DNA of 64,000 nucleotides, taken from positions 1,428,001 to 1,492,000 of the forward strand of contig CM075990.1 of the NCBI GenBank assembly GCA_038087875.1. Direction: 5' to 3'. Source of the DNA: Malacoraja senta. Lineage: Eukaryota. Below the pieces are notes generated by a model, which saw only the letters and a list, made by a program, of their open reading frames with translations, had not been told where the DNA came from and did no database searches. Position 1 is the stretch's first letter, and each line of letters starts with the position of its first letter. This document shows, piece after piece, positions 1 to 63,648 of this stretch. The translations under genes were made by a program, and so were the position numbers.

Positions 1-1276
1 GATGTAATGGTAAATTAATGTTAGCTAAATTAAACTGATATATCATGGCCGTCCGAAGAGGGGGGGTGGTGCGTTGGGTGCGGTCGCATCCCACCTTTTT
101 TTCACAGAATAAGAAATATTCGCGAGGAAATAAATGGAGCGCAATCAGCGTTTACCCGTTGGGGGAAGTTGGGGGAAGCCGGTGACGCACTAGGGACGTA
201 ACATGACGCTGTCTCTCCGCGCGTGCGCAGTGGGTCCGGGCGGGATCAGGTCAGATCAATTTTCACTCCACACCAATGATACTAGAGCACCCTTTGCTCC
301 ACACAATCAGAGATCTCCTCGATGCCTCGTGTCTACTCAGGGTAAGTAGTGAAATGTTGCGTTGCGGGAGGGGGAGTCTTTTTCATATCCTGGGTGGCAA
401 ACTCCGTTTCTCCGTGGGGGGGGGGGCGCTGCGGTGTCTGCCCATCGCCTGGCGTCCACGGAGCGGGTCCGCTGCCGGCGGCCGGCGGACCAATCCGGGG
501 AGACCGTTCTCCCGTTGCCGGGCGGGATCCGGAACGACTGAATCTGAACCTGTCGGGCCCTCGCCTCCCCCTCCGCCCCCCCCCCCGCTGGGCCCACGCC
601 ACCTTTTCCCCGCCCACGCCACCCCACACTACCGCAGGGCCCACGCCTTTCTTCCGCCCCCCCGCAGCGGACCCGCGCCACCGCGGACAGTCGCCCCCCC
701 CGCGGACCCTCGCCTATCGCCTTTCGCCCCCCCCCCCGCGCAGCGGTCCCTCGCATATCGCCCCCCCCGCGGCGCGCACTCGCATCTCGCCCCCTCCCCA
801 CCCTCGCATCTCCCCCCCCCCACCCGCAGCGGCCCCTCGCATCTAGCCCCCCCAGCAGTGGACCCTCGCATCCTCCCCCAACGCTGCGTGGGAAGTAGGA
901 AGGTGAAAGAGGGGGGAATGTGAGACAGGGAGGGATGGGAGGGGGAGAGAGAGGGGAAGGAGGGGAGGGGAGAGAGAGAGAGATGGGGAGGGAAAGAGAG
1001 GTGGAGGGCAGAGGGAAACGGGGATTATCTTTAGTGACATTGGAAAATTAAGGTCGGTTTTAGAGCTATTATATTTTCTCCTCTATATGAATAATATTAA
1101 ACAATATCAAATAATATCAAACATTTGGAACTCCTTTCTTTTACTTGATAACAATACTGAAAAATATGAATTCCATAGTTTGTTACATAAATACACATTT
1201 TAATGGGAGCATTATATATAGATGTAACATTTCCATTTTGAGATCAAGGGGGTGGGGGCAAATATGCAAGGGCATA

Positions 1277-2252
1277 TGGAAGGGCATGCAAGAAATTACC
1301 AACTACAAGAGGAAAGCCCCCGCTCTTTGAACAATCGTCAGCTGAGCCACGACCTGAATGAGCTTTACTGCAGGTTTGAAAATCAGAAACGTTACTCTGC
1401 TAACCCCTCCCCAACAAACACAGCCCGACCCGTCTGCAAATGATGGACCCAGCTCCCTCTCCTTCCCATTCACCACTTCACACCTACGTAAGGCAAGACT
1501 CCAGTATGAAAAGAGTGGACCCTTTCCCACCCCAACTAATACTTCACACCCACTCACAGCCTGACCTCATTCTACAAAGACTGGGCCCTTCTACACCCAC
1601 CCCACTCCAATCACCACTTCACACACAATAACTCATTTTTAACCAGTCCCTGCAAACATGTACTGTCCCTGTCTGCTTCAAAGTCTCCACTATTGTCCCT
1701 GTACACAAAGAGGCAAGGATTACTTGTCTTAATGACTACAGGCCTGACGCACTGACCTCTGTAGTCATGAGGACCCTTGAAAAGGCTTGTGCTGGCCAAG
1801 CTGAAAAATATCACAATTCCCCTGCTGGACTCTCTGCAGTTTGCATATTGGGCCAATAGATTTGTGGATGACGCAGTCAATCTGGGCCTGCACTTCATTC
1901 TCCAGCACCTAGATCGCCAGGGGACCTATGCGAGCATTTTGTTTGTTGATTTTAGCTCTGCATTCAACACCATTTGTGCCAGAGCTACTACGCTCCAAAC
2001 GTTCCGAGTTTAGTGTGTCTGAACCCCTCTGTCGGTCGACCACCAGATTCCTGACAGACAGGAAGCGGCATGTGAGGCTGGAAAAGCACATCTCGGACCC
2101 GCAAACGCTCAGCGTAGGAGCAATGCATGGCTGCGTACTCAACCCTCTCCTCTACTCTCGCTACACCAATGACTGCACCTCCACAGACACCTCTGTCAAG
2201 CTTCTCAAGTTTGCGGACGACACAACCCTGATTGGACTGATCCAGGATGGGG
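1277..2252 (+). mobile_element. Degraded Rex1/Babar-type LINE ORF2 (RT) fragment
   Basis: Frameshifted RT motifs [43 protein letters not shown]. Copies at ~27315-28290 and ~47880-48928. Confidence 0.75.
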
Positions 2253-3190
2253 ATCTCTGTACTCTTTCCAGTTTGACATCTTTCCTACAACACGGTGCCC
2301 AGTACTGAACACAATATTCTAAATGCGGTCTCACCAACATCTTATACAATTGCAACATGACCTCCCGACATCTATACTCAATATTCTGACCGATGAAGGT
2401 CAAAATTCCAAAATATTTTTGACCACCTGATGTACCTGCGACTCGACCCTCAAGGAACCATCAACCATTCCTCTGCTCACCTGGCTAAATGATCCAGATC
2501 CTGCTGCAATCTTTCACAACCATCTTCACTATCTGCAAAACCACTCACTTCCGTATCATCAGCAAACTTGCTAATCTGGCACTGTTCTATGACGTTTCAC
2601 AGAGTGCTGGAGTAACTCAGCGGGCCAGGCTGAGTATAGAAGTTGGGAGGTCATGTTGCAGTTGCATAAGAAGTTGGTGAGGCAGTATTCAGAGCGTTGT
2701 ATTCAGTTCTGGGCACCATGTTATGGGAAAGATGTCATCAAACTGGAAAGGGTACAGTGAAGATTTACGAGGATGTTGCCAGGACTAGAGGGCCAGAGCT
2801 ATAGGGAGAGGTTGAGTAGGCTGGGACTCTATTTCATGGAGCACAAGAGGATGAGGGATGATCTAATAGAGGTGTATAAAATCATGATTTGATTAGATAT
2901 GGTTGAGTAGGTGAATCGAGGAGCAGAGGACATAAGTTTAAGGTGAAGGGGAAAAGATTTAATAGGAATCTGAGGGGTATATTTTTCACACAAAGAGTGG
3001 TAGGTGTATGGAACAAGCTGCCAGAGGAGGTAGTTGAGGCAGGGACTATCGCAACATTTAAGAAACAGTTAGACAGGTACATGGATAGGACAGGTTTGGA
3101 GGGATATGGATCAAACGTGGGCAGATGGGACAAGTGTAGATGGGACATGGTGGGCCGAAGGGCCTGTTTCCACACTGTATCACTCTATGA
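2253..3190. mobile_element. Patchwork of degraded CR1 LINE 3' fragments (both strands)
   Basis: CR1 ORF2 C-terminal motifs LVRPHLEYCVQYW (minus) and FFTQRVVGVWNKLPEEVVEAG (plus). Confidence 0.7.
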
Positions 3191-3272
3191 CTATCTATCT
3201 TTCCCTGTCAAACCCATTATATTGCCTTCTCCCCATTACCTCTGACACCCGTATCAATCAAGAATCTATCAA

Positions 3273-3423
3273 AGGTACACAAAAATGCTGGAGAAACTCA
3301 GCGGGTGCAGCAGCATCTATGGAGCGAAGGAAATAGGTAACGTTTCGGGCCGAAACCCTTCTTCAGACCTTCAACCCTTTGTGTACCTTCGATTTTCCAG
3401 CATCTGCAGTTCCTTCTTTAACA
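3273..3423. mobile_element. 151-bp Penelope-derived insertion with hammerhead-like core and 14-bp TSD
   Basis: Flanked by CAAGAATCTATCAA (3259-3272 and 3424-3437). Present in unit 2 (~29313-29463); single empty site in unit 3 (~49913-49926). Confidence 0.75.
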
Positions 3424-3852
3424 CAAGAATCTATCAATCTCTTCCTGAAAAATGTCCATTGACTTGGCCTCCACAACTGTCTGTGGCAATGAATTCCACA
3501 GTTCACCACCCTCTGACTTAAGAAATTCCTGCTCATCTCCTTCCTAAAGGAATGTCTTTTAATTCTGAGGCTGTGGCCACTGGTCCTAGACTCTCCCACT
3601 AGTGGAAACATCCTCTCCACATCCACTCCGTCCACGTTTTTACCAGGCTGGGACAGACTGCAACAGCTTCACACCATATCCCAAGGCTTGTGTCCTTTAA
3701 CTGCATCACCCAAGGCAGGAGAGACGTTATAGGAGAGGGCAAGCACCGTCACAAATTAGCTCATGATGGTTTGGGTAACATTCAGGAATGTCTATGCATG
3801 TCACATTATGCATTTTACTGAAGAAGGGTCTTGACCCGAAATATAATCTATC

Positions 3853-4384
3853 GTGTGGGAAAATGAACCCCACGCTCCCGTCTCCCCCTTCTCTCTCCCC
3901 TCTTCTCTATCTACCCCCCTCTCTCTCTCTCTCTCCCTTCTCTCTACCCTCTTCTCTCTCTCCTCTTCTCTCTCTCCTCTTCTCCTCTCACTCCCTTCTC
4001 TCTCCCTTCTTTCTCTCCTCCGTCTCCACCCGCGGGAGCGTCCCACAGTCACTGACCGCAGTCGGAGGGAGGGGGGGGGAATCACCCTGGTGTGGGGGTT
4101 GGGGTCCGATGGCGGTGCATCGCGGTCAGTGACTGTGGGACGCTCCCGCGGGTGGAGACGGAGGAGAGAGAGAGAAGGAATAGCGGGGTGAGAGAAGGGG
4201 GAGGGAGAGGAGGGAGAGAGAAAGGAGAGTGGGGGGTGAGAGGAGGGGAAGAGAGAGGAGGAGAAAGAGTAGAGTGGAGAGAGTGAAGAGGGTAGAGAGA
4301 AGGGAGAGAGAGGGAGAGGGGGGAGAGAGAGAAGTGGTGAGAGAGAAGGGGGGAGACGGGTGCGTGGGGTTCATTTTCCCACAC
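3853..4384. repeat. Fold-back (long inverted repeat) element with CT/AG-rich arms
   Basis: Ends GTGTGGGAAAATGAACCCCACGC / GCGTGGGGTTCATTTTCCCACAC; inner arms ~4013-4059 and ~4122-4168 are reverse complements. Copies at 29893-30443 and 50342-50968. Confidence 0.8.
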
Positions 4385-5804
4385 AAGCCATAGCTGACTG
4401 GGCAATCTGAACCCAAGCACCAAGTTGAAAGGGGCCGAATGTATGCATCGCTCGGGACAGCCCCCACTCTCCCACGGCCAACCTCCGCGGGCTGCGGGTC
4501 GGGTGGAGCGGAGGTTTGGGACAATGTTCATGTCTTCACAGTGATGTGATGGACGCGAGGGTCTGGACCAATCGCTGACAAGTCCCGCCCCCCGCAACGT
4601 CATGTCCGTTATTGGACTTTTCTGTTGAGCGGCAGTCAGTCCTTTGGCCTGTGGGCGACGCCGCCATTCGGGTAGTTGGCGTTATGACAGAGCGGCCATT
4701 CGGTAAGTTTGCTTTTAGGCGACGCTGCTTTTCGGTTCCTTGGGTTTAGGCGTCCCGCCCATTCGGGTAGTTTGCATTTAGGCGTCCCATCCCTTCGGTT
4801 AGTAGGCGTTTCGTCTTCGGACTCTTTCGGTTTATTGGCGTTTCGGCCTCGCTTCCATTCCGTTGTTTGGCTTCGACTTCTTTGCTTCGGCTTCTTGTCT
4901 GTCGGCGCCACGTCCGGGTACCATAATCTATACCTTTTCTCCAGAGATGCTGCCTGACCCACTGAGTTACTCCGGCACTCTGTGAAACGTCACCTATCCA
5001 TGTACTCCACAGATGCTGCCTGACTCACTGAGTTATCCAGCACTTTGTGCCTATTTTCCCTTCACCCATCTCCCCAAACCCACCTCCCCCTCCTTTTCTA
5101 TGTTCCTTTCCACCCATAAACCTCTCTCTGCCTTTACATTTCACTCCTCTTTCAAATCTGCTTTACTTATCTACATGCATTTTTCTTCTTAACTTTTTAG
5201 TCATAGAATGATGCAGTGTGGAAACAGGCCCTTCAGCCCAACTTGCCCACACCGACCAACATGTCTCATCTACAATAGTCCCACTCACACGCGTTTGGTC
5301 CAGATCCATCTAACCTGTCCTATCTGTACGTGTCTAAATGTCTCTTAAACATTAGGATAGTCCCAGCCTTAACTACCTCCTCTGGCAGCTCGTTCCATAC
5401 ACCCACCATCATAGAAACATAGAAACATAGCAAATAGGTGCAGAAGGAGGCCATTCGGTCCTTAGAGCCATTGTGATCATGGCTGATCGTCCCCTATCAA
5501 TAACCCGTGCCTGCCTTCTCCCCATATCCCTTGACTCTCCACTAGCCCCTAGAGCTCTATCTAACTCTCTCTTAAATCCATCCAGTGACTTGGCCTCCAC
5601 TGCCCTCTGCGGCAGGGAATACCACAAATTCACACAACTCTCTGGGTGAAAACGTTTTTTCTCACCTCAGTCTTAAATGACCTCCCCTTTATTCTAAGAT
5701 GCATCCTTTGTGTGAAAAAGCCACCTCTCAGATTCCTGTTAATCTCTGAAATATTGGTCATAGATTTGGGGCAAAAATGCTCCAAAATAAGGCTCGGAAT
5801 GCAT

Positions 5805-6675
5805 GCAATACAATACAATACAATACAATACCATTTATTGTCATTTGAACCTCAAATGAAGTTCAAACGAAATTTGGTTTCTGCAGTCATACAAACAGTA
5901 AAAAGAACCAAGACACAACACAATGTACACAAACATCCATCACAGCGAATCTCCTCCTCGCTGTGATGGAAGGCAAAGTCTTATCTCTCCCCTGCACTCC
6001 TCATTCTCCTCCCGATGTCAGAGTCAGAGCCCCCGGCGGGCGATGGAAAATAAGTCCCGCGGCCATTAAAGCTGCACTGGGCGATGCAAGGCTGCCCTCC
6101 GGGTCTGGATGTTGGAGCCCCCGGTAGCGCCAGCAAGTCCAGCGACCATTAAAGCCGCGCCGGGCGATGTTAGACCCACCTCCAGGTCATCTTCAACCCC
6201 GCAACTCGGGCGGGAGAAGTTGCCGTTGCGGGAGCCGCGAAAACCGGTCTCCCACCAGGGACCCGCGAGCTACCGATGTTACCGTCCACCTGACCTGCGG
6301 CTGGAGCCTCCGAATCTCCGGGGTCGGGTCACAGCCGCGCGTCACCGCAGCTCCTCCACGCTCCGAACTCGGCCAACTCCACGATGGTGAGTAGTCCGCA
6401 GGCTCTGCGACTGGAGCCCCAGGTCGTTCCGGTTGGAGGCCTCTCCACGGTGCTAGGCGCCAATGACAACGGAGACCCGACAGAGAAAGGTCGGGTCCTC
6501 CATACAGGGAAGAGATTTTTTAAGTTTCCCCCTCCCCCCCCCCCCCCGCCCCCCACATATACACAGTTAAAAACAATATAAAAAAACACAAACAACTACA
6601 TTTAACAAGACAAAAATAAAAAAAGACAGACGGAGTGCAGTCGAGCCGCTGCCGTTAGGCGCCGCCACTTCCGGA
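5805..6675 (-). mobile_element. Probable non-autonomous retroposon with microsatellite tail
   Basis: On the minus strand, a GC-rich body is followed by AATAAA and a (TATTG)n tail; no coding motifs. Present in all three units. Confidence 0.45.
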
Positions 6676-6941
6676 AGGTGCATCAGAGAGCATATAAAAC
6701 CCCAGAGCTTCCAGGGCCCTTAAGCGGGCCCTGTACCCCGGCACCGAGGGACTTCGCGCTCACATTATTTCACATTAAAATTTGTGTAATCCTGTCATGC
6801 CACCCCCCTTTTTGAAAAGCTTCGTGCGGGCCTGTATATACATATTGTCTGTGACCAAAGATAGACACAAAATGCTGGAGCAACTCAGCAGGACAGGCCG
6901 CATCTATGGAGAGAAGGAATGGGTGACGATTCGGGTCGAGA

Positions 6942-7434
6942 CATAGATACATAGATACATAGAAAATAGGTGCAGGAGTAGGCCATTCGGCCCTTCGAGC
7001 CTGCACCGCCATTCAATATGATCATGGCTGATCATCCAACTCAGTATCCCGTACCTGCCTTCTCTCCATACCCCCTGATCCCTTTAGCCACAAGGGCCAC
7101 ATCTAACTCCCTCTAAATATAGCCAATGAACTGGCGTCAACTACCCTCTGTGGCAGAGAGTTCCAGAGATTCACCACTCTCTGTGTGAAAACGTTTTTCC
7201 TCATCTCGGTCTTAAAGGATTTCCCCCTTATCCTTAAGCTGTGACCCCTTGTCCTGGACTTCCCCAACATCGGGAACAATCTTCCTGCTTCTAGCCTGTC
7301 CAACCCCATAAGAATTTTGTACGTTTCTATAAGATCCCCTCTCAATCTCCTAAATTCTAGCGAGTATAAGCCAAGTCTATCCAGTCTTTCTTCATATGAA
7401 AGTCCTGACATCCCAGGAATCAGTCTGGTGAACC
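6942..7434 (-). mobile_element. Young 5'-truncated CR1 LINE insertion (unit 1 only)
   Basis: (TATCTATG)n tail and CR1 ORF2 C-terminus; nearly identical to 61199-61695. Empty site GTCGAGACCCTTCTTCAG in units 2 (~32990) and 3 (~53492). Confidence 0.9.
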
Positions 7435-8000
7435 TTCTTCAGATCTGCAGAACTTTCCAACACTCATTGTTTGTGACCACGTTACGCGGGATAATGATGG
7501 GCTAGAAAGGTGTCACAGGTGACATTCAATGATTGCGCATACTTTCGACGGAACATATTCGAGGGCCGAAAGACCTCCTCCGATTACTGTGCTTCTGTTC
7601 TGTTTTCACAAGTTGTGATCTGGGATTTGAGTGTCGATCAGACCGATGGGAAAACCTCCCCTGCTCCGCCTCTGTCCCTGAATTTGCAATGTTTAAAGGG
7701 CGTGTGGTTCAGTGACCTGACCAGTCTTCGTCAGTCAAGGACTGAGGTGGAAAATGGCGAGAATTCTCTGTTTCTCTTGTCTGGTGAGATCTATATTCCG
7801 AATTGACAAAAATGTTCAGCAGCGGGATTACCACATCTGATGAACATGGTGCGTTATATAAAAATTGACGCAGAATTAGGTGAACGACTATGCCCGGATT
7901 CTTGAGTTGGAAGTGAACCGAGTTTCCTCATCTCCGTCCAAAATGGCCTCCACTTATTCTTAAACTGTGACCCCTTGTTAAGTACTGCAGTGGTAAAGTA

Positions 8001-8072
8001 GCCGAATAGCTCAGTTGGGAGAGCGTTAGACTGAAGATCTAAAGGTCCCTGGTTCAATCCCGGGTTTCGGCA
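8001..8072 (+). tRNA. tRNA-Phe-GAA: tRNA-Phe(GAA) variant with 1-nt deletion in the acceptor stem (possible pseudogene)
   Basis: Matches vertebrate tRNA-Phe but begins GCCGAATAG rather than GCCGAAATAG (72 vs 73 nt). Could be a homopolymer sequencing error. Confidence 0.85.
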
Positions 8073-8303
8073 ATGGTATTTATGACTTAAAAATTTAAAT
8101 CAGCGTTCATAGATGTATGGTTTATTCCAGCGCTATTATTCGTTACGCAGCCGTCAGTGCCGCTCAATCAAGGGTTAACGTTAACCTCCGGTGTTCTTTG
8201 ACTGTCTTTCTGCCTCCATATGACTTATTACATTTCCAGCAGGTACCACGATTTCCAGTCAAACACCACAGACATGCGATCGGTAATTAAATTGGCCATG
8301 TAG

Positions 8304-9951
8304 TAGGTATGTTACAATACTTACCTTCAGCGGCGCTGCAATTCTGCCACTGGCCGTGTGCGCGATTTTGGCGCCTTTAAGGGGGGCGGGGTTAAAACGC
8401 GGGTTTCTCCTACCTTGTCCTGGTTAATATTTCGTTGGAGTGCAAGCGTTTGCTGAAAAATCGTTCCGACGGGCGTTTTGTGTATTTATTATTTTTATTC
8501 GATCGACAATTTCAGCGCTGGAGTTATTTTAAAATCAGCTTCTGAAACCGTCAACGCCGACAACGGGGACGGATTTCACACACGGGACAGGTAAACGAAA
8601 GTAGTTTATTTTAATGTATAAAAGTGCTTCTTAAGAAGACTTTAATTCACATTTTTAATGCGAAACGGTAATTCTTTTCCCCGAACTAACGGCAGAATTT
8701 TTCATGCCGATACAGGGTTAAATTCACCGCAAATCAACGTTCCAATTGATCGTGTTCCAGAAAACCCCATTCGCAAGATGATTTAAATGCCCATTAATTT
8801 ACAGGTTTTAAACATTAAATTCCTTCCATTTGGCCTGTAAATCCATGACAATGAGATTTAAAAATTATGTTATATTGTGAATTCTTGTGTGAATGTTATT
8901 TGGACACTAAAAGGCCTGTCTCACGAGTCTGCGGTCTATGGCGGCGAAACGGGAGGAATCTGCCGCCATAGACCGCGCACTCGTGAGAAAGTACAATTCC
9001 CGGGCCGTGCGGTGGTGTTCCCAACACCGCGCGGTGCTAAAATAAAAACGACAATGTCCAAAACAAAATACTCACCGCACAACCTCCACCAGTGATGCAC
9101 AAGTGCGCACGGCCGCTCGCACGGGCCGCCGCCAGTATGGCTCGAGCGCCGTGCGTCAAACCTCCACTGGCACAGCCTCCGCCAGTGACGCACGTGCCGC
9201 CGCCAGTGATGCACGTGTGCTGCACGGCCGCAGGCACAGCCACCGCTACAGCGCCGCGATCAGGATGGCCGCCGCCACAGCCGCCGCTGGTGAGTCACGT
9301 GCGGCGGGCCGACGTCATCGCAGTCGGCCCGCCCTTTTTTTACTTACCGCAAGCACGTGGGACCCGCCGTGTTTGAATTAACTCGGCCCCCGCGCAACAT
9401 CCGTGCGGCGCTCCGGTGGATAGGCTCGACGCTCTCACCGTTGCCGCGCGGTCCTCGCTACCGGCGACGCCGCGCTTCACTGCCGATGACCACAAACAGG
9501 TAAGACAGAGCCTTTAGGCTATTTAAAAATGTTAATCTATTCCTAAGAAATTGATAGATATTTAGATCTAGTAATTGAATTTTGTAATTAGCTACAATTA
9601 GATAACTAACTAATTATATGCTTTCATTTCATGTCATCTAAGTAAGATTATTTCATATGTGTTTCAGAATGCTTCAATCTATAATAACTGAACATTTCTT
9701 TCAGTTCTCTTGATTATTAAGAAACTTATGGGCTTTTGACTGTCCTCGATCACAGCTTTTGTGTTAAGTCAATGGAAAAGCAATTGGGAACAAGATGCTA
9801 ATTTCCGAGTATGAAAATGGCCATAACTTTTTTAATACTGAAGATATGAAAGTGAATTAGGTGTCAAATTAAACTTCTTTTTATGCTTTATCTGATGGGA
9901 TAAATTACAGACTTTATTTTGTAAAATCTCAAAATTTTGTAACATTGGCTA
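8304..9951. mobile_element. Non-autonomous DNA transposon with short imperfect TIRs and 7-bp TSD
   Basis: TIRs TAGGTATGTTACAA / TTGTAACATTG(G)CTA; TSD CATGTAG at 8297-8303 and 9952-9958; empty site in unit 3 at 54380-54386. Confidence 0.85.
8911..9513. mobile_element. PIF/Harbinger-like MITE nested in the 7-bp-TSD element (unit 1 only)
   Basis: Imperfect TIRs AGGCCTGTCTCAC / GTAAGACAGAGCCT, flanked by TAA/TTA. Unit 2 shows the empty site ACACTTAGGC (~34471-34480). Confidence 0.75.
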
Positions 9952-10211
9952 CATGTAGCTCACCCTTTAGAACGGGGCTGTTTCGTGCATGGTATACGGC
10001 GGGATGTAGCTCAGCTACATAAATAGGAGAGGAATGGACGATAACATTTTAACGCAGAGTGAGATGTTACGCTAGGGCCGAACGACAGTTTTATTAACGT
10101 CTCGCGGGTGTATCTTTTACACCAGCAGACAAAAATTCTTACCAGAGGTAGATCCTTGGTGTATTGAGAGGATGATTCTCGTGACATTAGACACTGAAAA
10201 GTCTGAGCAAT

Positions 10212-10284
10212 GCCCGGCTAGCTCAGTCGGTAGAGCATGAGACTCTTAATCTCAGGGTCGTGATCTCGAGCCCCACGTTGGGCG
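10212..10284 (+). pseudogene. tRNA-Lys-CTT: tRNA-Lys(CTT) with mutated T-arm/B-box (likely pseudogene)
   Basis: Identical to vertebrate Lys-CTT except GTGGGTTCGAG -> GTGATCTCGAG (G52A, G53T, T54C). Confidence 0.85.
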
Positions 10285-10474
10285 ACACTTTCTTTAACCA
10301 TTATCAAATGCAAACATATGTCTACCCAGCCAATAGTTCAGGAATACTCTGCATTTTGGGAATCTAAGGATTTTATACCTTTGAAACCTATCGGTTACAT
10401 TAATCGGAGACAATTAACAGCAAGATGTGTTTTATTTATCGTGAAATAAAACGACAATGGTTGAGAGCGCCCAA

Positions 10475-10712
10475 CACACCAAACTGATCTCCCGGTGGCT
10501 CAGCACTTCTACTCCCCCTCCCATTCCAATTCCGACCTTTCTGTCCTGGTCCTCCGCCACAGCCAGAGTGAGGCCCAGCGCAAACTGGAGGAACAGCACC
10601 TCATATTTCGCTTGGGTAGTTTACACCCCGGCGGTATGAACATTGACTTCTCCAATTTCAGATAGCCCTTGCTTTCTCCCTCGTTCCCCTCCCCTTCCCA
10701 GCTCTCTCACAA
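10475..10712 (+). mobile_element. Penelope-like element 3' ORF fragment
   Basis: Translates to ...RKLEEQHLIFRLGSLHP.GMNIDFSNF, resembling a PLE GIY-YIG C-terminus. In unit 3 it continues into the hammerhead-bearing repeat at ~55216. Confidence 0.55.
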
Positions 10713-21960: not shown

Positions 21961-22359
21961 AATGTAGATGGGAAGAACCGGGTGGTCTTACCTTCAGCGC
22001 CCTCGAGGTCGGCTGCGGGATGTGCCCCTCGGGGGAACTATAGCTGAAGAGGGCAGGTGTGGAGAGGGATACCGGATTACAGGACATCCGGAATGGAGGC
22101 GAGGGCTGCAACGGGCCTGTGTCACCAGCTACAGCTGCGACTGTAAAATGGCGCCAAGATGGCACCTCATGCTTATGGACTCAGTGTGGTGTTCTGTGTA
22201 GACAGTACTGACTAGGGTGATTATGCATATGGACAGGGATAGTCTTGCTGAGCTGTATGAAATAATCCGTTCAACCATCCCCTTCCTAGGTACATTCCCA
22301 GCAACCGCAGTAGATGCAACACGTGTCTCTATACCTCCTCTCTTGACACCACCAAGGGC

Positions 22360-53900: not shown

Positions 53901-54067
53901 CATCTGATGAACACGGTGCGTTATATAAAAATTGACGCAGAATTAGGTGAACGACTATGCCCGGATTCTTGAGTTGGAAGTGAACTGAGTTTCCTCATCT
54001 CCGTCCAAAATGGCCTCCACTTATTCTTGAACTGTGACCCCTTGTTAAGTACTGCAGTGGTAAAGTA

Positions 54068-54140
54068 GCCGAAATAGCTCAGTTGGGAGAGCGTTAGACT
54101 GAAGATCTAAAGGTCCCTGGTTCAATCCCGGGTTTCGGCA
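54068..54140 (+). tRNA. tRNA-Phe-GAA: tRNA-Phe(GAA), intact
   Basis: 73-nt canonical sequence, identical to 33566-33638. Confidence 0.97.
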
Positions 54141-54639
54141 ATGGTATTTATGACTTAAAAATTTAAATCAGTTAAATCAGCGTTCATATGTATGGTTTAT
54201 TCCAGCGCTATTATTCGTGACGCAGCCGTCAGTGCCGCTCAATCAAGGGTTAACGTTAACCTCCGGTGTTCTTTGACTGTCTTTCTGCCTCCATGTGACA
54301 TTAAATTTCCAGCAGGTACCTCGATTTCCAGTCAAACACCACCAAACACCACAGACATGCGATCGGTAAATAAATTGGCCATGTAGCTCACCCTTCAGAA
54401 CAGGGCGTTTCGTGCATGGTATACGGCGGGATGTAGCTCAGCTACATAAATAGGGGAGGAATGGACGATAACATTTTAACGCAGAGTGAGATGTTGCGCT
54501 TCGGCAGAACGACAGATTTATTAACGTCTGGCGGGTGTATCTTTTACACCCGCAGACAAAAATTCAAACCAGAGATAGATCCTTGGTGTATTGAGAGGAT
54601 GATTCTCGTGACATTAGACACTGAAAAAGTCTGAGCAAT

Positions 54640-54712
54640 GCCCGGGTAGCTCAGTCGGTAGAGCATTTGACTCTTAATCTCATGGTCATGGGCTCGAGCC
54701 CCACGTTGGGCG
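54640..54712 (+). pseudogene. tRNA-Lys-CTT: tRNA-Lys(CTT) pseudogene
   Basis: Changes vs canonical: C7G, G28T, A29T, G44T, G49A, T54C; these disrupt the acceptor, anticodon and T stems. Confidence 0.85.
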
Positions 54713-56538
54713 ACAGTTTCTTTGACAATTATCTATGGCAAACATATGTCTACCCAGCGAATAGTTCAGGAATACTCTGCATTTGGGGGGAATCTAAGGA
54801 TTTTATACCTTTCAAACCCATCGGTTACATTTATTGGAGACAATTAACAGCAAGATGTGTTTTCTTTATCGTGAGATAAAACGACAAAGGTTGTGAGCGC
54901 CCAACCTACCAAACTGATCCCCCTTGGCTCCGCACTTCCACTCCCCCTCCCATTCCAAATCCGACCTTTCGCTCCTGGTCCTCCGCCACAGCCAGGGTGA
55001 GGCCCAGCGCAAATTGGAGGAACAGCACCTCATATTTCGCTTGGGTAGTTTAAACCCCAGCGGTATGAACATTAACTTCTCCAATTTCAGATAGTCCTTG
55101 CTTTCTCCCTCGTTCCCCTCCCCTTCCCAGTTCTCTCACAAGCCAACTGTCTCCGCCTTTTCCTTATAATTTTCCCGCCCCCACATCAGTCTGAAGCAAA
55201 GATAATGGTCTGATTCTGAAGAAGGGTCTCGACCCGAAACGTCGCCTAATCCTTCTCTCCATAGATGCTGCCTCACGCGCTGAGTTTCTCCAGCTTTTCT
55301 GTCTAATTTCGGTGACCAGCAGGCAAAGGATAAGACTGTTGGGTAGTTTTGTGACATTGTCGGCGCCAACATGTGGAGACAATTATGTACTGCATAGGTT
55401 ATATGCAAAACAAGGTATTTCACTGCACCTAAGTACCCTAGGTACATTCGGCAATAAAGTATCATTCGTTCGTTCATTCATTCATTCATTCATTCATTCG
55501 TTGGTTCGTTCATTCATTCATTCAATTCTGTAACTGATCTATATCTCACTGTAAACCTTGATAGTCTTACACACAACCTATGATCCCAGTAATCTTGGTG
55601 TAAAGTGCAAACTTACGAACCAACCGTCTACATATATATATTATATATATTATATATATATTATAAACAGCGGATCACAGATCCATGTAGAACTCTCGGA
55701 TTCTGGCTTTTTGACACTAATTTTGGGGATATTAATTCTTTTGTATTGTTATCTGAGTATTGTCTATTCGGGTTTATTATGCTACTCCAAGCAAGCATTT
55801 TGTTGTGCCATTGAATGTACATATGACAACAGACATTAGACAATAGGTGCAGAGGTAGGCTATACGACCGTTCGAGCCAGCACCGCCATTGAATGTGCTC
55901 ATGGCTGATCATCCACAATCAGTACCCCAATTTGTTGCCTTTTCTCCATATCCCTTAACTCCGCTCTCCCGGAGAGCTTTATCTAACTCTCACTTGAAAG
56001 CATCCAGAGAACGAGCCTCCACCGCCCTCTGAGGCAGATAATTCCACACACTCACAACTATCTTTGTGAAAATCTTTTTCCTCATTTTCGTTCGAAATGG
56101 CTTACCACTTATTCTTAAAATATGGCCCCTGTTTCTGGACTCCTCCAACATTGGGAACATGTTCCTGTCTCTAGCGTGTCCAAACCCTTAACAATCTTAT
56201 ATGTTTCAATAAGATCTCCTCTCATCCTTCTAAATTCCAGAGTATACAAGCCAAGCCGCTCGAATTTATCAACATATGACAGTCCCGCCATCCCGGAAAT
56301 TAACCTTTAGAAATTACGCTGCACCCCCTCAATGACAAGAATAGACACTAGACAAGAGACAACAGGTGCAGGAGTAGGCCACATGGCCACTCGAGCCAGC
56401 ACCGCCATTCAATGTGATCAAGTTTAGAGACCAAAACTGCATACAATACTCCAGGTGTGGTCTCACTAGGGCCCTGTACAACTGCAGAAGGACCTATTTG
56501 CTCCTATACTCCATTCCTCTTGTTATAAAAGTCAACAT

Positions 56539-58922
56539 AGAAAAAGCGTTTGATCAAGTAGAATGGGACTATATGATCAAAGTATTGCAAAAATTCCAAT
56601 TGGGAGAAAACTTTATTGCATGGATAAAACTACTATATAACAAACCTACGGCTAGAATACTAACTAATAATATATTATCTTCAAAATTCGAATTATCTAG
56701 GGGCAACAGACAAGGATGTTCACTATCACCGCTGTTATTTGCTTTGGTAATTGAACCCCTTGCTGAAAAAATAAGAACACACTCGAATATTCACGGTTAT
56801 AACACAAAATATTCAAACAACAAACTATCCCTATATGCTGATGATGTACTACTGTACATCACAAAACCACAAATTAGTATACCAAATATATTAAACTTAA
56901 TTGAGGACTTTGGATCCTTTTCAGGATATAGAATAAATTGGAACAAAAGTGAAATTATGTCGATTAAACCAAAAGACTCAACACATCTCAGGAAATTCCC
57001 TTTTAAAATAGCTATGGAAAAATTCAAATATTTAGGAATTGAGATTACTAGAAATTACCATGATATGTTTAAAGCTAATTATAATCCCCTACTTAAGAAA
57101 TTAAATAATTTGATTAAATTTTGGAAAACACTTCCGATGTCCTTAATAGGTAGGATAAATGCTATAAAAATGATTTTCTTACCACAAATCCTTTACCTAT
57201 TTCAATCAATACCTATATATCTCCCAAAAAAGTTTTTCAAAAAACTGGACTCAGACATTACAAATTTTATATGGGATTACAAATCCCACAGAATACAAAG
57301 AACACACCTTAACAAACGAAAAGAGTTGGGGGGTCTAGCGCTCCCTAACTTTATGTATTATAACTGGGCAGTAAATATGAAAAATATGATTCACCTGCTG
57401 GACAATTCTGCCCAGCAGGTGGACTGGATTATAATGGAAAAAGGGGATTGCTCCCCGAATAATATAGGAGCGATTATTCTCTCTCCAATAAATTTGAATA
57501 ATAAAAATTATAATAAAAATCCAATTATATATAGCACTATTAGAACATGGAAGCAAATAAAACAGAATCTAAAATTAAGAAACCTATCTCTCTTAATACC
57601 AATAGTCAATAACCCATCGTTTAAACCTTCAATCATAGATAAATCATTTATACAATGGGAAAGAATGGGAATCAAAACGCTCGAAGATCTGTATGAATTA
57701 GAAAAATTACTATCATTCCAACAACTACAACTGAAATATAATTTGAAAAATAATCAATATTTTAAATATCTACAAATCCGTGACTATTTGAAAACACACA
57801 CAAAAGATTATTATAATATGCCTTCCGACTTACTAGATGAAGCAATGAAGACAAAGGCGGAATCAGTTAATTTAATATCATACTTATATAATATCATCTT
57901 AAATATAGAAATACCCACAACAGATGGAATTAGAAGAGATTGGGAACAAGATCTAGGTATAAAAATTTCAAAAGAGAGTTGGGATAATCATTTATTACAG
58001 GTGCATAAATGCTCGATCAACGTACGACATACGCTTATCCAATTTAAAACATTACATAGATTATATTATTCAAAAACCAAACTAAATAAAATCTTTCCTA
58101 ACGTCTCACCAATCTGTGATAAATGTATATGTCAAGAAGCTACCATAGCACATTCTTTTGTCTTTTGTACAAAAATCCAAAAATTCTGGTTTGAAATATT
58201 TGATATTTTTTCAAAATTAATCAAAATAAAACTGGTACCAAAACCAGAATGGATTATTTTTGGAATATCGGAAGGTATTCCTGAATTAAACGTGTATCAG
58301 AAGAATTTACTCAATTATGGGCTAATAATGGGAAAAAAGCTTATACTTAAATTCTGGAAAAATGCGCCCACACCAACAATAAAAATGTGGACATCAAATA
58401 TGTTGGAAACATTACATCTGGAAGAGATGAGATTCCTCCTAGTAGGCAAAGTAGACCAATTTCAAAAGACGTGGTCTACGTTTTTGGACCTATTACAAGC
58501 ATGAGGTGCAATAGTAATTTAGAAAAACAAATAAATAAATAAAAGGTATCTGGACCTGGTAATGGGAGGTAAAATAAAAACAGACTTGGTTGGTAGTTCC
58601 TTCTCTATGAAGTATGTTATAAGAGTTATAATAGAGCGATTGTTCCTTCTTTCTTTCTCTTTCTTTTCTAGGGTCTATTTTCTAACTTTACTTCCTTCTC
58701 TAACTTCTTTTCTAAGGGGCTTTCTTTTCCCAACACTCTTTTGCACTTCACAACCTTTGCGCACTTTCTTCACTTTTCTTACTTCTTTCTTTTTCTTTCT
58801 TAAAGTTTAAAAAAGTGAAGCGGTACAAAAAATGTATTAATATATACGTGTTGTACATTACTGTAATCTACCGTACTTCTATTAAAAAAATTATTTAAAA
58901 AAAAAATAAAAAAAATAAAAAA
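56539..58922 (+). mobile_element. Young 5'-truncated L1-clade LINE (unit 3 only)
   Basis: TSD AAAAGTCAACAT (56527-56538, 58923-58934), 3' UTR, ATTAAA and A-rich tail; empty site at ~11675-11686 and ~36919-36930. Confidence 0.93.
56540..58504 (+). CDS. L1 ORF2 (partial: RT + C-terminal cysteine-rich domain), uninterrupted
   Basis: EKAFDQVEW, GNRQGCSLSPLLF, LYADDVLLY, KYLGI, CDKC..ATIAHSFVFC; open frame to the stop at 58504. Confidence 0.88.
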   Translation, partial: EKAFDQVEWDYMIKVLQKFQLGENFIAWIKLLYNKPTARILTNNILSSKFELSRGNRQGCSLSPLLFALVIEPLAEKIRTHSNIHGYNTKYSNNKLSLYADDVLLYITKPQISIPNILNLIEDFGSFSGYRINWNKSEIMSIKPKDSTHLRKFPFKIAMEKFKYLGIEITRNYHDMFKANYNPLLKKLNNLIKFWKTLPMSLIGRINAIKMIFLPQILYLFQSIPIYLPKKFFKKLDSDITNFIWDYKSHRIQRTHLNKRKELGGLALPNFMYYNWAVNMKNMIHLLDNSAQQVDWIIMEKGDCSPNNIGAIILSPINLNNKNYNKNPIIYSTIRTWKQIKQNLKLRNLSLLIPIVNNPSFKPSIIDKSFIQWERMGIKTLEDLYELEKLLSFQQLQLKYNLKNNQYFKYLQIRDYLKTHTKDYYNMPSDLLDEAMKTKAESVNLISYLYNIILNIEIPTTDGIRRDWEQDLGIKISKESWDNHLLQVHKCSINVRHTLIQFKTLHRLYYSKTKLNKIFPNVSPICDKCICQEATIAHSFVFCTKIQKFWFEIFDIFSKLIKIKLVPKPEWIIFGISEGIPELNVYQKNLLNYGLIMGKKLILKFWKNAPTPTIKMWTSNMLETLHLEEMRFLLVGKVDQFQKTWSTFLDLLQA

Positions 58923-61198
58923 AAAAGTCAACATGCCATTCGCTTTCTTCACTGCCTGCTGTACCTGCATGCCTTTCAGTGACCGATGAACGAGGACTCC
59001 AGATCATGTTGTACCTCCCCTTTTGCCAACTTGACACTATTTAGATAATCTAACTTCCTGTTTCCGTCATCAAAGTGTATAACCTCATATTTATCCACAT
59101 TAAACCGCATCTGCCATGCGTCTGCCCACACACCCAACCTGTCCGACCGCCCTGCATCCTCATACCATCCTCCTCACAGTTCACAATGCCTCCCGGCTTT
59201 GTGACATCTGCACATTTGCTAATGTAACTTTTAATCCCTTCATCCAAATCATTAATATATATTGTAAACAGCACCCAGCCTTGCGGGAACCCACTAGTTA
59301 CTGCCTGCCATTCTGAAAGGGACCCGTTAATTCCTACACTTTGTTTCCTGTCTGCCAACCAAGTTTCTATCCATGTCAGCACCCTACCACCAATACCATG
59401 TGCTTTAATGTTGCCCAGTATTCTCCTATGTGGGATCTTATCAAATGCTTATGACAATTAAATACTCATGACTCTACTCTCTGGAAAAGAATGGAAGGGT
59501 GGGGACCAAAACGGGTAAATCCAATTGACGTAGAGGGCGTCACTGTCGACATGGACATGGTGGGCCATGAGGACCCGTATCTGCGGTCAACGATTCCATA
59601 TTTATTTGAATCTAATGTCGAGGGCCTGTTCCGAGATGTGCGAGGAAATTACGAAGCACCCAAAGCTTTAAAACTGCTGCTGATAAGGGAGGGAGCGAAG
59701 ATGTTAAGAACCATTTATTGAAATCCGGTCCCGGGCCGTAAGGGGTTCATGGCGAGGCAGTGAGACACGCTACCGGAGGTAGAATTCCCTTCATCGGAGA
59801 CTCTGTGAAAACCGGGCAATGAAGGTTCGGTGCCAGTGATCTTAAGTCTACGGATACTGACGATTACAACGCCATTTGCAGGTACAGGATCAATCAAATC
59901 AATTATTCCAAATCCATGCGGATCTTTACATTGAAATCAAAAGAGATTAAAGAGAGTCGAATTTATGCAGGCACTACAGGGCAGCTGATAAATCATACTT
60001 ATGGGTGCTGGGGATAGCGCGCTGGGAAGGAATCGCCAGATGTAGAAGGGGTCCGTGGTGAACGTGACAGACAGATATATGAAAGCCGGGGTGCTGAGAG
60101 AGATGACAGCAATTATTGTGTGTAGGATGGAACTGCAGATGCTGGATTACACCGAAGAGAGACACAAAATGCTGGAGTAACTCAGCGCGCCAGGCAGCAT
60201 CCATGAAGAAAATGTATAGGCGACGTTTCGGATCGAGACCGTACTTCAGATTGAGATTCAGGGATGTGGGTAACTAGAGGTATGAAAAGGTACCTATGAA
60301 AAGCAGAGATTACTCTGATGACCAAAGAGCTCACAATGGTCCATTGTTGGCTGAGGAAGAGGTGAACACGGAGGGATAAGAACAGTCAAACGATCAAAAC
60401 GACTACGGTGGGGGAGGGACGGGGAGAGAGAGGGAATGCAACTGTTACCTGAAATTAGAGACATCAATTATCATACCTGTTGTGTTCTTAGGAATTACTT
60501 TAGATTTATTTAAGATGTTCCATTATTAGAGCAGGGGTTCCCAACGTTTTACGTCCCGTTTACCCCAGGCAACTTTTCGAAAGTAAATTTACCCTCACCC
60601 TGTTTTGTTCAGTAATTGAGTTTACACTTCTACCATAATAAAGCAACCGACAAAGGGGATCTTTTAAAATACTGTTTTTAACATTATTATTTTAAGTTTC
60701 AGAATCAACAAATTTACACCCCGGGAGCCTTCGCTCTAGATCATTGAGCTCCTTGGTTATATCAGGATCAGAGGGGCCTCGCGGTTCTCCAAGCCAAGAC
60801 GTCACGATGCAGCTCTCCCTGACATTCAAATATGCACTGCATAAAATGGGAATGGTCGGGGGAGGGGGTGTTGGAGATCACAGGTAAGTAGATTAGATTG
60901 AAGATGATAGCAACAAAAAGCTGGAGTAACTCAGCGAGACAGGCAGCATCGCTGGAGTGAAGGAATGAGTGACGTTTCGGGTTGACAACCTTCTTCAATA
61001 ACCTCCATCTTAACACCACAAAAACCAAGGAGATAGTTGTGGACTTCAGGAGGGGGAGGAGGAAGACTCAAGCAACACCAATCACCATTAGGGGCACTGA
61101 GGTGGAGGTGGTCGCTAACCACAGGTACCTACCTAGGTGTGCAGCTTGACAGGGAGCTGGACTGGAAGTGTCATATGGTGGCGGTGTACAGGAAGGGA

Positions 61199-62766
61199 CA
61201 TAGATACATAGATACATAGAAAATAGGTGCAGGAGTAGGCCATTCGGCCCTTCGAGCCTGCACCGCCATTCAATATGATCATGGCTGATCATCCAACTCA
61301 GTATCCCGTACCTGCCTTCTCTCCATACCCCCTGATCCCTTTAGCCACAAGGGCCACATCTAACTCCCTCTTAAATATAGCCAATGAACTGGCCTCAACT
61401 ACCCTCTGTGGCAGAGAGTTCCAGAGATTCACCACTCTCTGTGTGAAAAAGTTTTTCCTCATCTCGGTCTTAAAGGATTTCCCCCTTATCCTTAAGCTGT
61501 GACCCCTTGTCCTGGACTTCCCCAACATCGGGAACAATCTTCCTGCATCTAGCCTGTCCAACCCCATAAGAATTTTGTACGTTTCTATAAGATCCCCTCT
61601 CAATCTCCTAAATTCTAGCGAGTATAAGCCAAGTCTATCCAGTCTTTCTTCATATGAAAGTCCTGACATCCCAGGAATCAGTCTGGTGAACCTTCTCTGC
61701 ACTCCCTCTATGGCTATAATGTCCTTCCTCAGATTTGGAGACCAAAACTGTACGCAATACTCCAGGTGTGGTCTCACCAAGACCCTGTACAACTGCAGTA
61801 GAACCTCCCTGCTCCTATACTCAAATCCTCTTGCTATGAAGGCCAACATACCATTCGCTTTCTTCACTGCCTGCTGCACCTGCATGCCTACTTTCAATGA
61901 CTGGTGTACCATGACACCCAGGTCTCGCTGCACCTCCCCATTTCCTAATCGGCCACCATTTAGATAATAGTCTGCCTTCCCGTTTTTGCCACCAAAGTGG
62001 ATAACCTCACATTTATCCACATTATACTGCATCTGCCAAACATTTGCCCACTCACCCAGCCTATCCAAGTCACCTTGCAGTCTCCTAGCATCCTCCTCAC
62101 AGCTAACACTGCCCCCCAGCTTAGTGTCATCCGCAAACTTGGAGATGTTGCTTTCAATTCCCTCGTCCAGATCATTAATATAAATTGTAAATAGCTGGGG
62201 TCCCAGCACTGAGCCTTGCGGTACCCCACTAGTCACTGCCTGCCATTGTGAAAAGGACCCGTTTACTCCTACTCTTTGCTTCCTGTTTGCCAGCCAGTTC
62301 TCTATCCACATCAATACTGAACCCCCAATACCGTGTGATTTAAGTTTGTATCCTAATCTCTTATGTGGTACCTTGTCGAAAGCCTTCTGAAAGTCCAGAT
62401 ACAACACATCCACTGGTTCTCCCCTATCCACTCTACTAGTTACATCCTCGAAAAATTCTATAAGATTCGTCAGACACGATTTACCTTTCGTAAATCCATG
62501 CTGACTTTGTCCAATGATTTCACCACTTTCCAAATGTGCTGCTATCCCATCTTTAATAACTGACTCTAGCAGTTTCCCCACTACCGATGTTAGACTAACT
62601 GGTCTGTAATTCCCCGTTTTCTCTCTCCCTCCCTTCTTAAAAAGTGGGGTTACGTTTGCTACCCTCCAATCCTCAGGAACTACTCCAGAATCTAAAGAAT
62701 TTGAAAAAATTATCACTAATGCATCCACTATTTCTGGAGCTACTTCCTTGAGTACTCTGGGATGCA
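61199..62766 (-). mobile_element. Young 5'-truncated CR1 LINE nested in Rex1
   Basis: (TATCTATG)n tail and open ORF2; splits the Rex1 reading frame. Confidence 0.93.
61298..62766 (-). CDS. CR1 ORF2 reverse transcriptase (partial, uninterrupted ~490 codons)
   Basis: [58 protein letters not shown] with no stops. Confidence 0.88.
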
Positions 62767-63545
62767 TTGTATTTTTTAAGGAGGCTGAGGGCATTTAACA
62801 TCTGCCAACCCCTACTGTGCAGTGTCTACCATTCAGTGGTGGCCAGTGCTCTGTTTTTTGCGGTGGCCTGTTGGGGAGATGGCGCTCGCATAGCGGACAA
62901 AAACAGACTGGACAAACTGATCAGGAAGGCCGGTTCAGTGGTCGGGGCTGAGCAACGAACGGTCCAGCAGGTGGCAGAGGCCAGAACTCTGAAAAAACTG
63001 GGTTCTATAATGACCAACCCCACTCACCCACTCCATGCCCTGAAGGTGATCAAGAGCAGCAGCTTCAGTCAGAGACTGATTGCACCAATGTGCAAAACGG
63101 AGAGACATAGGAAGTCCTGTTTACCAGCTGCGATAAGGTTATATAATGCGCATAAATAACTGCACTTTTTTTAAATTAATTGTATTTTAACTTGTATTTT
63201 CACTTGTATTTTAACTTGTTAAGTATGGAAGCTATTCGTGGTGTTATGTCTATCTTGAAGCTGTCGTGGCATTGTAATTTCCTGCAAAGGATTATTAAAG
63301 GTATAATCTAATCTAATCTAATCTAATCTAATGATTAGATTAATTTGGCATTATGTTAGACACTGATATATTGGACCGATTGGACCTGTTTCTTAGCTCC
63401 TGTACTGTATGTATTATGTTATTTCGGGATGTTCAATAAAGCGATCAATTCAGCAAAAACATATTTGATGCTGTCACCATTTATAAATCAAGATGTGCAA
63501 AATACGCCTTGGAATTCCAGTAAATTTTTGAACGACAAAAACGTT

Positions 63546-63617
63546 CTCCCCGTCGGGGAATTGAACCCCGGTCTCCCGCGTGACAGGCGGGGATACTTAC
63601 CACTATACTAACGAGGA
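63546..63617 (-). tRNA. tRNA-Asp-GTC: tRNA-Asp(GTC), intact
   Basis: Canonical sequence with D-loop GGTAAG variant; T5 run just downstream. Confidence 0.95.
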
Positions 63618-63648
63618 ATCACAATATCTTTTTTGTTGTGAAGCAGGA

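What the first reader, a model, noticed from the sequence alone, without database searches (positions are those of the whole stretch)
1..63648. ~20.6-kb tandem macro-repeat amplifying a Phe-Lys-Asp-iMet tRNA cassette
Seen: three consecutive collinear units whose only recognisable host genes are tRNAs, arranged Phe+ Lys+ Asp- iMet- in ~20 kb of transposon relics (the third iMet would lie beyond the window). Known: tandem tDNA arrays exist in Xenopus and mammals, with units of a few kb. Inference: this is an unusually large, TE-laden tDNA macrosatellite, probably in a cartilaginous fish, that may be copy-number variable and set initiator-tRNA dosage.
Basis: partly seen in the sequence, partly recalled or inferred. 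Interest (0 to 1): 0.7.

Follow-up and report, generated by a model that had tools for sequence, protein, structure and literature searches.

The report
Decaying tandem tRNA-cluster duplication in ray
A roughly 20-kilobase stretch carrying four tRNA genes was copied head-to-tail several times in a skate- or ray-like fish, but the copies are drifting apart and about half of the tRNA genes are damaged, so this looks like ordinary gene-cluster turnover rather than a device for boosting initiator tRNA.

Summary
The repeat is real: two full copies (1-26048, 26049-46642) and about two thirds of a third (46643-63649), with the order Phe+ Lys+ Asp- iMet-. The period is not fixed: 19.2-26.0 kb, and 20.6 kb fits only the middle copy. 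The copies are not homogenised. They differ by 1.6%, about 2.5% and about 6% in three blocks with sharp switch points, and each carries its own transposon insertions. Only 5 of 11 tRNA loci look intact. All three Lys copies have a broken T-arm/B-box, and the first iMet has lost 38 nt to a templated-insertion scar, leaving one intact iMet. The host is a batoid-like elasmobranch, a group reported to carry large tRNA clusters. Best reading: serial, phase-shifted one-period duplications by unequal crossing-over inside a tRNA cluster, followed by birth-and-death decay; this predicts at least one more unit upstream. Copy number and polymorphism could not be measured. The initiator-dosage idea is not supported. 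Low interest.

The parts
1..26048 (.). Copy 1 of the repeat (phase arbitrary: the window starts inside the array); about 20.2 kb after removing three private insertions
26049..46642 (.). Copy 2, 20,594 bp; the only copy matching the stated 20.6 kb
46643..63649 (.). Copy 3, partial and chimeric: left part (to about 54.4 kb) 2.2-2.6% from copies 1/2, right part 4-9%
8001..8072 (+). tRNA-Phe(GAA) copy 1; one base missing in an A-run of the acceptor stem (mutation or sequence error)
33566..33638 (+). tRNA-Phe(GAA) copy 2, intact; T4 terminator at +21
54068..54140 (+). tRNA-Phe(GAA) copy 3, intact body; first T4 only at +334
10212..10284 (+). tRNA-Lys(CTT) copy 1, probable pseudogene: C at position 54, two T-stem mismatches, no B-box match
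35446..35518 (+). tRNA-Lys(CTT) copy 2, identical to copy 1, probable pseudogene
54640..54712 (+). tRNA-Lys(CTT) copy 3, probable pseudogene: C at 54, mismatches in acceptor, anticodon and T stems; 7 differences from copy 1
13656..13727 (-). tRNA-Asp(GTC) copy 1, intact, T4 at +5
38919..38990 (-). tRNA-Asp(GTC) copy 2, one G of the conserved D-loop GG changed to T
63546..63617 (-). tRNA-Asp(GTC) copy 3, intact body, T5 at +5; upstream flank replaced beyond about 30 bp
40719..40790 (-). Initiator tRNA-Met, the only intact one in the window (A1-U72 pair, three G-C pairs closing the anticodon stem, A at 54; these initiator hallmarks are recalled), T4 at +17
20277..20334 (-). iMet relic of copy 1: 38 nt including the anticodon arm replaced by a 24-nt insert (20296-20319) made of a 10-nt direct copy and a 16-nt inverted copy of flanking DNA
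8304..9951 (.). Non-autonomous DNA transposon with terminal inverted repeats and a 7-8 bp target duplication (hAT-like, label recalled); in copies 1 and 2, absent from copy 3; its empty site (about 54380) lies in the divergence switch interval
8908..9513 (.). 606-bp nested MITE with inverted ends, copy 1 only
6943..7432 (-). 490-bp LINE 3' end, copy 1 only; 99.2% identical to the LINE inserted at a different site in copy 3
15161..19898 (-). Young Ty3/Gypsy-type LTR retrotransposon, copy 1 only: LTRs of about 202 bp with no substitution and one indel, 5-bp target duplication, gag/protease ORF and RT-RNaseH-integrase ORF
34914..35467 (+). 275-bp local tandem duplication, copy 2 only, leaving a 22-nt 5' Lys fragment at 35171-35192
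56527..58922 (+). 5'-truncated LINE (708-aa RT frame, poly-A tail, target duplication; L1-like label recalled), copy 3 only
60999..63332 (.). Copy-3-only LINE with (TAATC)n tail, itself interrupted by a young CR1-like LINE (about 61198-62770, 498-aa RT frame, minus strand)
63647..64000 (.). Sequence with no match elsewhere in the window, starting about 30 bp upstream of Asp3; probably another insertion; hides whether copy 3 continues

Best explanation
A slice of a tRNA-gene cluster in a batoid (skate/ray) genome that grew by at least three successive tandem duplications of about one 20-kb period, each with its breakpoint at a different phase of the unit (unequal crossing-over), and that is now decaying by birth-and-death. 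SHOWN: three divergence classes with sharp switches. The right part of copy 3 is about 6% from the others (oldest event). The left part of copy 3 and the second halves of copies 1 and 2 are about 2.2-2.9% apart (middle event; switch at 54366-54500, at the edge of a transposon that copy 3 lacks). The first 14-15 kb of copies 1 and 2 are 1.6% apart (youngest event; switch at about 12.8-14.9 kb). Also shown: private insertions after each event, and damage in 6 of 11 tRNA loci. INFERRED: the mechanism is unequal crossing-over; the youngest event copied a period that begins upstream of the window, so at least one more unit lies to the left; the iMet relic is a polymerase-theta-type repair scar; Phe and Asp are weakly constrained while Lys, already mutated at position 54 before the oldest event, evolves neutrally; the transposon-rich spacer is a passenger, and the cluster adds a few redundant Pol III templates to a large genomic pool.
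For: Three-way alignment: copy-3-private substitutions 95 of 6357 sites left of 54380 against 177 of 3344 right (Fisher p=2.5e-25), while copy-1 plus copy-2 private rates do not change (p=0.60); change-point LR 111.6 against a maximum of 17.1 in 200 permutations. Copy 1 v 2: 200 of 12378 sites (1.62%) left of about 14.6 kb against 180 of 6218 (2.89%) right; LR 32.1 against a maximum of 17.7; holds without CpG sites. Private insertions with empty sites in the sister copies. tRNA lesions. Substitutions in genes against flank-rate expectation: Phe 0 v 2.2, Asp 2 v 5.0, Lys 7 v 5.0; P=0.027 for Phe+Asp. Direct-plus-inverted templated insertions are described as a polymerase-theta scar (PMC7165422 passages). 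Tandem proliferation with rapid pseudogenisation is the described norm for tRNA genes (PMC4981973 passages). An unequal-crossover tRNA array under drift is described in Arabidopsis (PMC2886086 abstract and one section). More than 300 tRNA loci lie in one cluster in red stingray (10.1101/2025.06.08.657570 section 6).
Against: Only 64 kb is visible and no genome is held, so the predicted upstream unit and the total copy number are unseen. Gene-conversion tracts could give the same mosaic. Copy 1 has more private changes than copy 2 on the left (58 v 35), and in 53500-54379 copy 2 is closer to copy 3 (1.2%) than to copy 1 (1.8%), which a clean three-step tree does not explain. The permutation tests treat sites as independent, so local rate variation could inflate the weaker switch. 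The selection signal falls to P=0.075 if the Phe1 deletion is counted. Transitions do not exceed transversions (189 v 207), lower than I would expect for vertebrate neutral divergence (expectation recalled). Gene activity is judged from structure only.
Confidence: 0.68

Rival explanations
1. A simple local triplication (two duplications) whose mosaic divergence comes from long gene-conversion tracts between neighbouring copies; no further units exist.
For: Same block structure; small tracts where copy 2 is closer to copy 3 than to copy 1; only 2.65 periods are seen.
Against: Needs a conversion tract of 14 kb or more. The window starts inside repeated sequence with no left boundary in view.
Confidence: 0.14
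2. The frayed end of a long, copy-number-variable tDNA macrosatellite that supplies Phe/Asp/iMet tRNAs, perhaps in oocytes, and so affects dosage.
For: Divergence between neighbours falls towards the left (about 6%, 2.5%, 1.6%), as at the edge of an array. Weak constraint on Phe and Asp. Repetitive tRNA clusters encode maternal tRNAs in zebrafish (PMC11417395 passages), and oocyte-specific tandem tRNA genes are active at genome activation in Xenopus (PMC11500080 passages).
Against: The leftmost copy is the most damaged (iMet destroyed, Phe1 deletion, Lys dead, three private insertions). Known tDNA VNTRs are described as homogeneous (PMC4041453 Discussion). One intact iMet per 64 kb is little against hundreds of clustered loci.
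Confidence: 0.12
3. Copies 1 and 2 are two haplotypes of one locus joined by the assembler; only an older two-copy duplication is real.
For: 1.6% divergence with insertion polymorphisms is not impossible for alleles in a repeat-rich region; no read support was obtained.
Against: No N or gap. The copy 1/2 junction is the same sequence as the copy 2/3 junction. Three copies of 1-13.8 kb exist, one 4-9% diverged. Divergence reaches 2.9% over 6 kb. Differences are 396 substitutions against 29 one-base indels, which is not a long-read error pattern.
Confidence: 0.06

Closest known systems
Elasmobranch tRNA gene clusters (red stingray chromosome 28, more than 300 loci, with histone genes; 10.1101/2025.06.08.657570)
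   Same: Same lineage; clustered multi-isotype tRNA loci in repeat-rich DNA. This window is most likely a slice of such a cluster.
   Different: The passages and section read give no unit structure or duplication history. No histone motif was found in this window.
Human 1q23.3 / mouse 1qH3 tDNA tandem repeat (PMC4041453)
   Same: Head-to-tail units with several tRNA isotypes in fixed order and some TE fragments.
   Different: Units 7.3 and 7.6 kb, GC-rich, homogeneous, 9-43 copies per human allele, different isotypes (Leu, Gly, Glu, Asp). Here units are 19-26 kb, 48% GC, 1.6-6% diverged, with 6 of 11 genes damaged.
Arabidopsis chromosome 1 tRNA triplet array (PMC2886086)
   Same: Multi-tRNA unit expanded by unequal crossing-over in several steps, likely under drift.
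   Different: 27 small units with concerted evolution; no 20-kb transposon-filled spacer.
Xenopus oocyte-type tandem tRNA genes and zebrafish chromosome 4 clusters (PMC11500080, PMC11417395)
   Same: Repeated tRNA genes in an anamniote; the Xenopus unit includes initiator Met, Phe and Lys (recalled, not from a call).
   Different: Those are compact, high-copy and expressed maternally. Here density is about one tRNA locus per 6 kb, and expression is unknown.

Membership tests
tDNA macrosatellite / VNTR (1q23.3 type) | Head-to-tail multi-kb units with tRNA genes in fixed order | tested here: met
tDNA macrosatellite / VNTR (1q23.3 type) | Homogeneous units of constant length | tested here: not met
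   1.6-9% divergence, spacing 19.2-26.0 kb, private insertions
tDNA macrosatellite / VNTR (1q23.3 type) | Many copies, variable between alleles | not testable with these tools
   No genome held; no run holds half of the sampled words (best 0.42, 21 rows); no depth result obtained
tDNA macrosatellite / VNTR (1q23.3 type) | tRNA genes intact in each unit | tested here: not met
   5 of 11 loci intact; 0 of 3 Lys; 1 of 2 iMet
tDNA macrosatellite / VNTR (1q23.3 type) | GC-rich unit with conserved CTCF site | tested here: inconclusive
   Window GC 48% with patches above 60%; CTCF motif not searched
Birth-and-death tRNA cluster grown by tandem segmental duplication | Paralogous blocks with shared flanks at several ages | tested here: met
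Birth-and-death tRNA cluster grown by tandem segmental duplication | Mix of intact genes and pseudogenes | tested here: met
Birth-and-death tRNA cluster grown by tandem segmental duplication | Turnover between related species | not testable with these tools
Initiator tRNA-Met (40719-40790) | A1-U72, three G-C pairs in the anticodon stem, A54 (features recalled) | tested here: met
Polymerase-theta templated insertion (iMet relic) | Deletion with a 3-30 bp insert copied as direct and/or inverted repeat from flanking DNA | tested here: met
   38-nt deletion, 24-nt insert = 10-nt direct + 16-nt inverted with overlap; definition from PMC7165422 passages; the enzyme itself is inferred

The most novel reading that the evidence does not exclude
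The window is the diverged edge of a long array of 20-26 kb units, about three times the unit size of the mammalian tDNA VNTR, that is copy-number polymorphic among individuals and serves as the batoid equivalent of the oocyte-type tDNA arrays of frogs and zebrafish, keeping Phe, Asp and initiator Met under selection while carrying a dead Lys gene and a load of still-active transposons along.
Probability: 0.12. Interest if true: 0.5.

Novelty: new member of a known kind. Interest (0 to 1): 0.22.

Why it matters
It gives a base-level picture of how elasmobranch tRNA clusters, so far described mainly as counts, turn over: whole 20-kb transposon-filled blocks are duplicated, and genes die inside them. 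It also warns that tRNA locus counts in sharks and rays include dead copies: three Lys pseudogenes pass Rfam's cut-off at 37-49 bits. It does not open a new mechanism, and nothing here ties it to initiator-tRNA dosage.

Tried and rejected
Whole-genome search: no genome held. No read or contig laying result was obtained, which leaves copy number, polymorphism and conservation in relatives open. Hidden host genes: none by Pfam (2 of 99 ORFs of 72 aa or more, taken from copy 1 outside the Gypsy element and tRNA genes plus one at the right end) or by recalled zinc-finger and histone motifs in six frames of the whole window; short exons are not excluded. Other RNA genes: Rfam gave 10 tRNA hits; two snR86 hits far below gathering score are low-complexity TC/GA hairpins and were rejected. 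A relaxed ARAGORN run with introns gave implausible models. Ty3-like targeting of tRNA promoters: rejected, since the Gypsy copy lies 1.4 kb from Asp1 and about 380 bp from the 3' end of the iMet relic. A single global three-way alignment failed beyond Asp because copy 3 ends and was replaced by block alignments; low-complexity stretches (about 690-1024 and 3851-4399 and their copies) were left out of the three-way counts. Earlier scan notes: three look-ups, nothing found. Literature: six searches listed no paper on a Phe-Lys-Asp-iMet unit of this size in an elasmobranch; the library lacks most subscription journals, and the supplements of the Squalomix preprint, which may list such loci, were not seen.
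Full report
Observation. The window (64,000 bases, no N, 48% GC) is almost wholly one repeat. Self-BLAST gives collinear alignments of 3-7 kb at 92-97% identity, and the first 40 bases recur at 26049 and 46643. There are two full copies and about two thirds of a third, ending at 63649. ARAGORN finds 8 tRNA genes and Rfam 10; BLAST with these genes adds an iMet relic at 20277-20334 and a 22-nt Lys fragment at 35171-35192. The order Phe+ Lys+ Asp- iMet- is right. The period is not 20.6 kb throughout: homologous anchors are 19,194 to 26,048 bp apart, and copy 1 shrinks to about 20.2 kb only after three private insertions are removed. About 30 bp upstream of Asp3, sequence with no match in the window begins, so whether a third iMet exists cannot be told.

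Other genes. Pfam finds only retroelement-type domains: 6 of 12 chosen long ORFs and 2 of 99 further ORFs from copy 1 and the right end. Recalled zinc-finger and histone motifs are absent in six frames. Rfam finds no other RNA family at its cut-off. Between 28 and 33% of each copy has a dispersed match inside the window, a lower bound on transposon content.

Host. The young LINE frame at 61301-62794 has, among the 120 rows listed, named relatives at 90% and 88% in Leucoraja, 87% in Mobula, 75-76% in Hypanus and Chiloscyllium, and at most 58% in birds, turtles and coelacanth.

State of the tRNA genes. Five of 11 loci look intact: Phe2, Phe3, Asp1, Asp3 and iMet2. All three Lys copies have C at position 54 and no B-box match. 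Lys1 and Lys2 have two T-stem mismatches; Lys3 has mismatches in the acceptor, anticodon and T stems. The shared change at 54 means the gene was impaired before the oldest duplication (inference). Asp2 has lost one G of the D-loop GG, and Phe1 lacks one base in an A-run, which may be a sequence error. In the copy-1 iMet, 38 nt including the anticodon arm are replaced by 24 nt made of a 10-nt direct copy and a 16-nt inverted copy of the adjacent DNA. The inverted part carries the copy-1 allele of the flank, so it arose in that lineage. Such inserts are described as polymerase-theta scars (PMC7165422, passages). Against flank rates, Phe shows 0 substitutions for 2.2 expected, Asp 2 for 5.0 and Lys 7 for 5.0; P=0.027 for Phe+Asp, or 0.075 counting the Phe1 deletion. 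This is weak evidence for constraint on Phe and Asp and none for Lys. Phe1 and Phe3 have no T4 run within 290 bp.

History of the repeat. Divergence is a mosaic. In blocks shared by all three copies, copy-3-private substitutions are 95 of 6357 sites left of 54380 and 177 of 3344 right of it (p=2.5e-25), while the private rates of copies 1 and 2 do not change (p=0.60). The switch lies at 54366-54500 and includes the empty site of a 1.65-kb DNA transposon that copies 1 and 2 carry. Copies 1 and 2 differ at 200 of 12378 sites (1.62%) up to about 14.6 kb and at 180 of 6218 (2.89%) beyond; this survives removal of CpG sites. Three one-period tandem duplications with breakpoints at different phases reproduce all these distances: an old one (about 6%), a middle one breaking between Phe and Lys (about 2.5%), and a young one breaking between Asp (or just before it) and iMet (1.6%). 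The young event must then have copied a period starting left of the window, so at least one more unit is predicted there. This is inference; long conversion tracts could mimic it, and some small tracts do not fit a clean tree (58 v 35 private changes in copies 1 and 2; copy 2 nearer copy 3 in 53500-54379). After the duplications each copy gained its own elements: in copy 1 a 490-bp LINE end, a 606-bp MITE and a 4.7-kb Gypsy element with near-identical LTRs; in copy 2 a 275-bp duplication; in copy 3 three LINE pieces and smaller inserts. The LINE ends in copies 1 and 3 are 99.2% identical yet sit at different sites, so that family moved recently. A homogenising array would erase or spread such insertions.

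Artefact check. Differences between copies 1 and 2 are 396 substitutions, 29 one-base indels and 18 longer indels in 18,595 columns. There is no gap, and the copy 1/2 junction has the same sequence as the copy 2/3 junction. The right part of copy 3 is too diverged to be an allele. Against this, transitions do not outnumber transversions (189 v 207) and no read support was obtained. No genome is held, and none of 21 listed runs holds half of the sampled words. Copy number, polymorphism and conservation in relatives remain open.

Comparison with what is known. Elasmobranch genomes stand out for abundant, clustered tRNA loci, with more than 300 on one red stingray chromosome (10.1101/2025.06.08.657570, passages and section 6; supplements not seen). 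tRNA genes are described as proliferating by tandem duplication and turning rapidly into pseudogenes (PMC4981973, passages). An Arabidopsis tRNA array was modelled by unequal crossing-over under drift (PMC2886086, abstract and section 18). The human 1q23.3 tDNA VNTR has 7.3-kb homogeneous units at 9-43 copies per allele (PMC4041453, search listing, passages and Discussion); this window shares the layout but fails on homogeneity and gene integrity. Repetitive clusters encode maternal tRNAs in zebrafish and Xenopus (PMC11417395 and PMC11500080, passages), which keeps an oocyte-array reading alive at low odds. Six searches listed no description of this unit, within the limits of the library. Three look-ups in the scan's own notes returned nothing. 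Transposon class labels (hAT-like, CR1-like, L1-like) are recalled, not from a repeat library.

Verdict. A real, apparently undescribed tandem segmental duplication of a four-tRNA cassette with an unusually long, transposon-filled unit. It is best read as ordinary birth-and-death turnover in an elasmobranch tRNA cluster (0.68). It works like other unequal-crossover tRNA arrays but is not a member of the homogeneous tDNA macrosatellite class on the features tested. With one of two iMet genes destroyed, the dosage idea has no support. New member of a known kind; interest 0.22.

Noticed in passing
window 15161-19898: Very young, apparently full-length Ty3/Gypsy-type retrotransposon: LTRs differ by one indel only, 5-bp target duplication, 461-aa gag/protease frame and 1010-aa pol frame overlapping in different frames, primer-binding-like site and purine tract beside the LTRs.
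   Followed up: partly
window 20296-20319: Germline scar with one direct and one inverted templated piece replacing the core of an initiator tRNA gene; a textbook-like polymerase-theta footprint in an elasmobranch.
   Followed up: yes
window 6943-7432 and 61198-62770: Two 99.2%-identical CR1-like LINE ends at different sites; the longer keeps an open 498-aa RT frame, so the family is recently active.
   Followed up: partly
window 3853-4384, 29893-30443, 50342-50968: Fold-back element: long inverted arms made largely of TC/GA microsatellite around a short loop; arm length differs between copies. Gives false snR86 hits.
   Followed up: partly
window 45-1050 and copies at 26.1 kb and 46.7 kb: GC-rich, CpG-rich stretch with promoter-like motifs and a good splice-donor match near 350; no downstream coding exon found; may be the inside of a DNA transposon.
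   Followed up: no
window 8073-8370 and 54141-54480: Phe1 and Phe3 lack a run of four T for about 300 bp downstream, whereas Phe2 has one at +21 through a single base difference.
   Followed up: partly
window 63647-64000: Unrelated sequence starts about 30 bp upstream of Asp3, between an A and a T and beginning with TC, like a Helitron 5' end (recalled); it removes the upstream flank of that gene.
   Followed up: no
whole window: The SINE head motif occurs 19 times on the + strand and 6 times on the - strand; the counts are inflated by the duplications and were not tested.
   Followed up: no
window 54383-63649: Within the old block, divergence is higher next to tRNA genes and in unique spacer (6-9%) than in the old LINE relic at 55.7-59.6 kb (4.0-4.7%).
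   Followed up: no
window 56378-58504: A+T-rich 5'-truncated LINE with an open 708-aa frame and poly-A tail, inserted into an older LINE relic in copy 3.
   Followed up: partly
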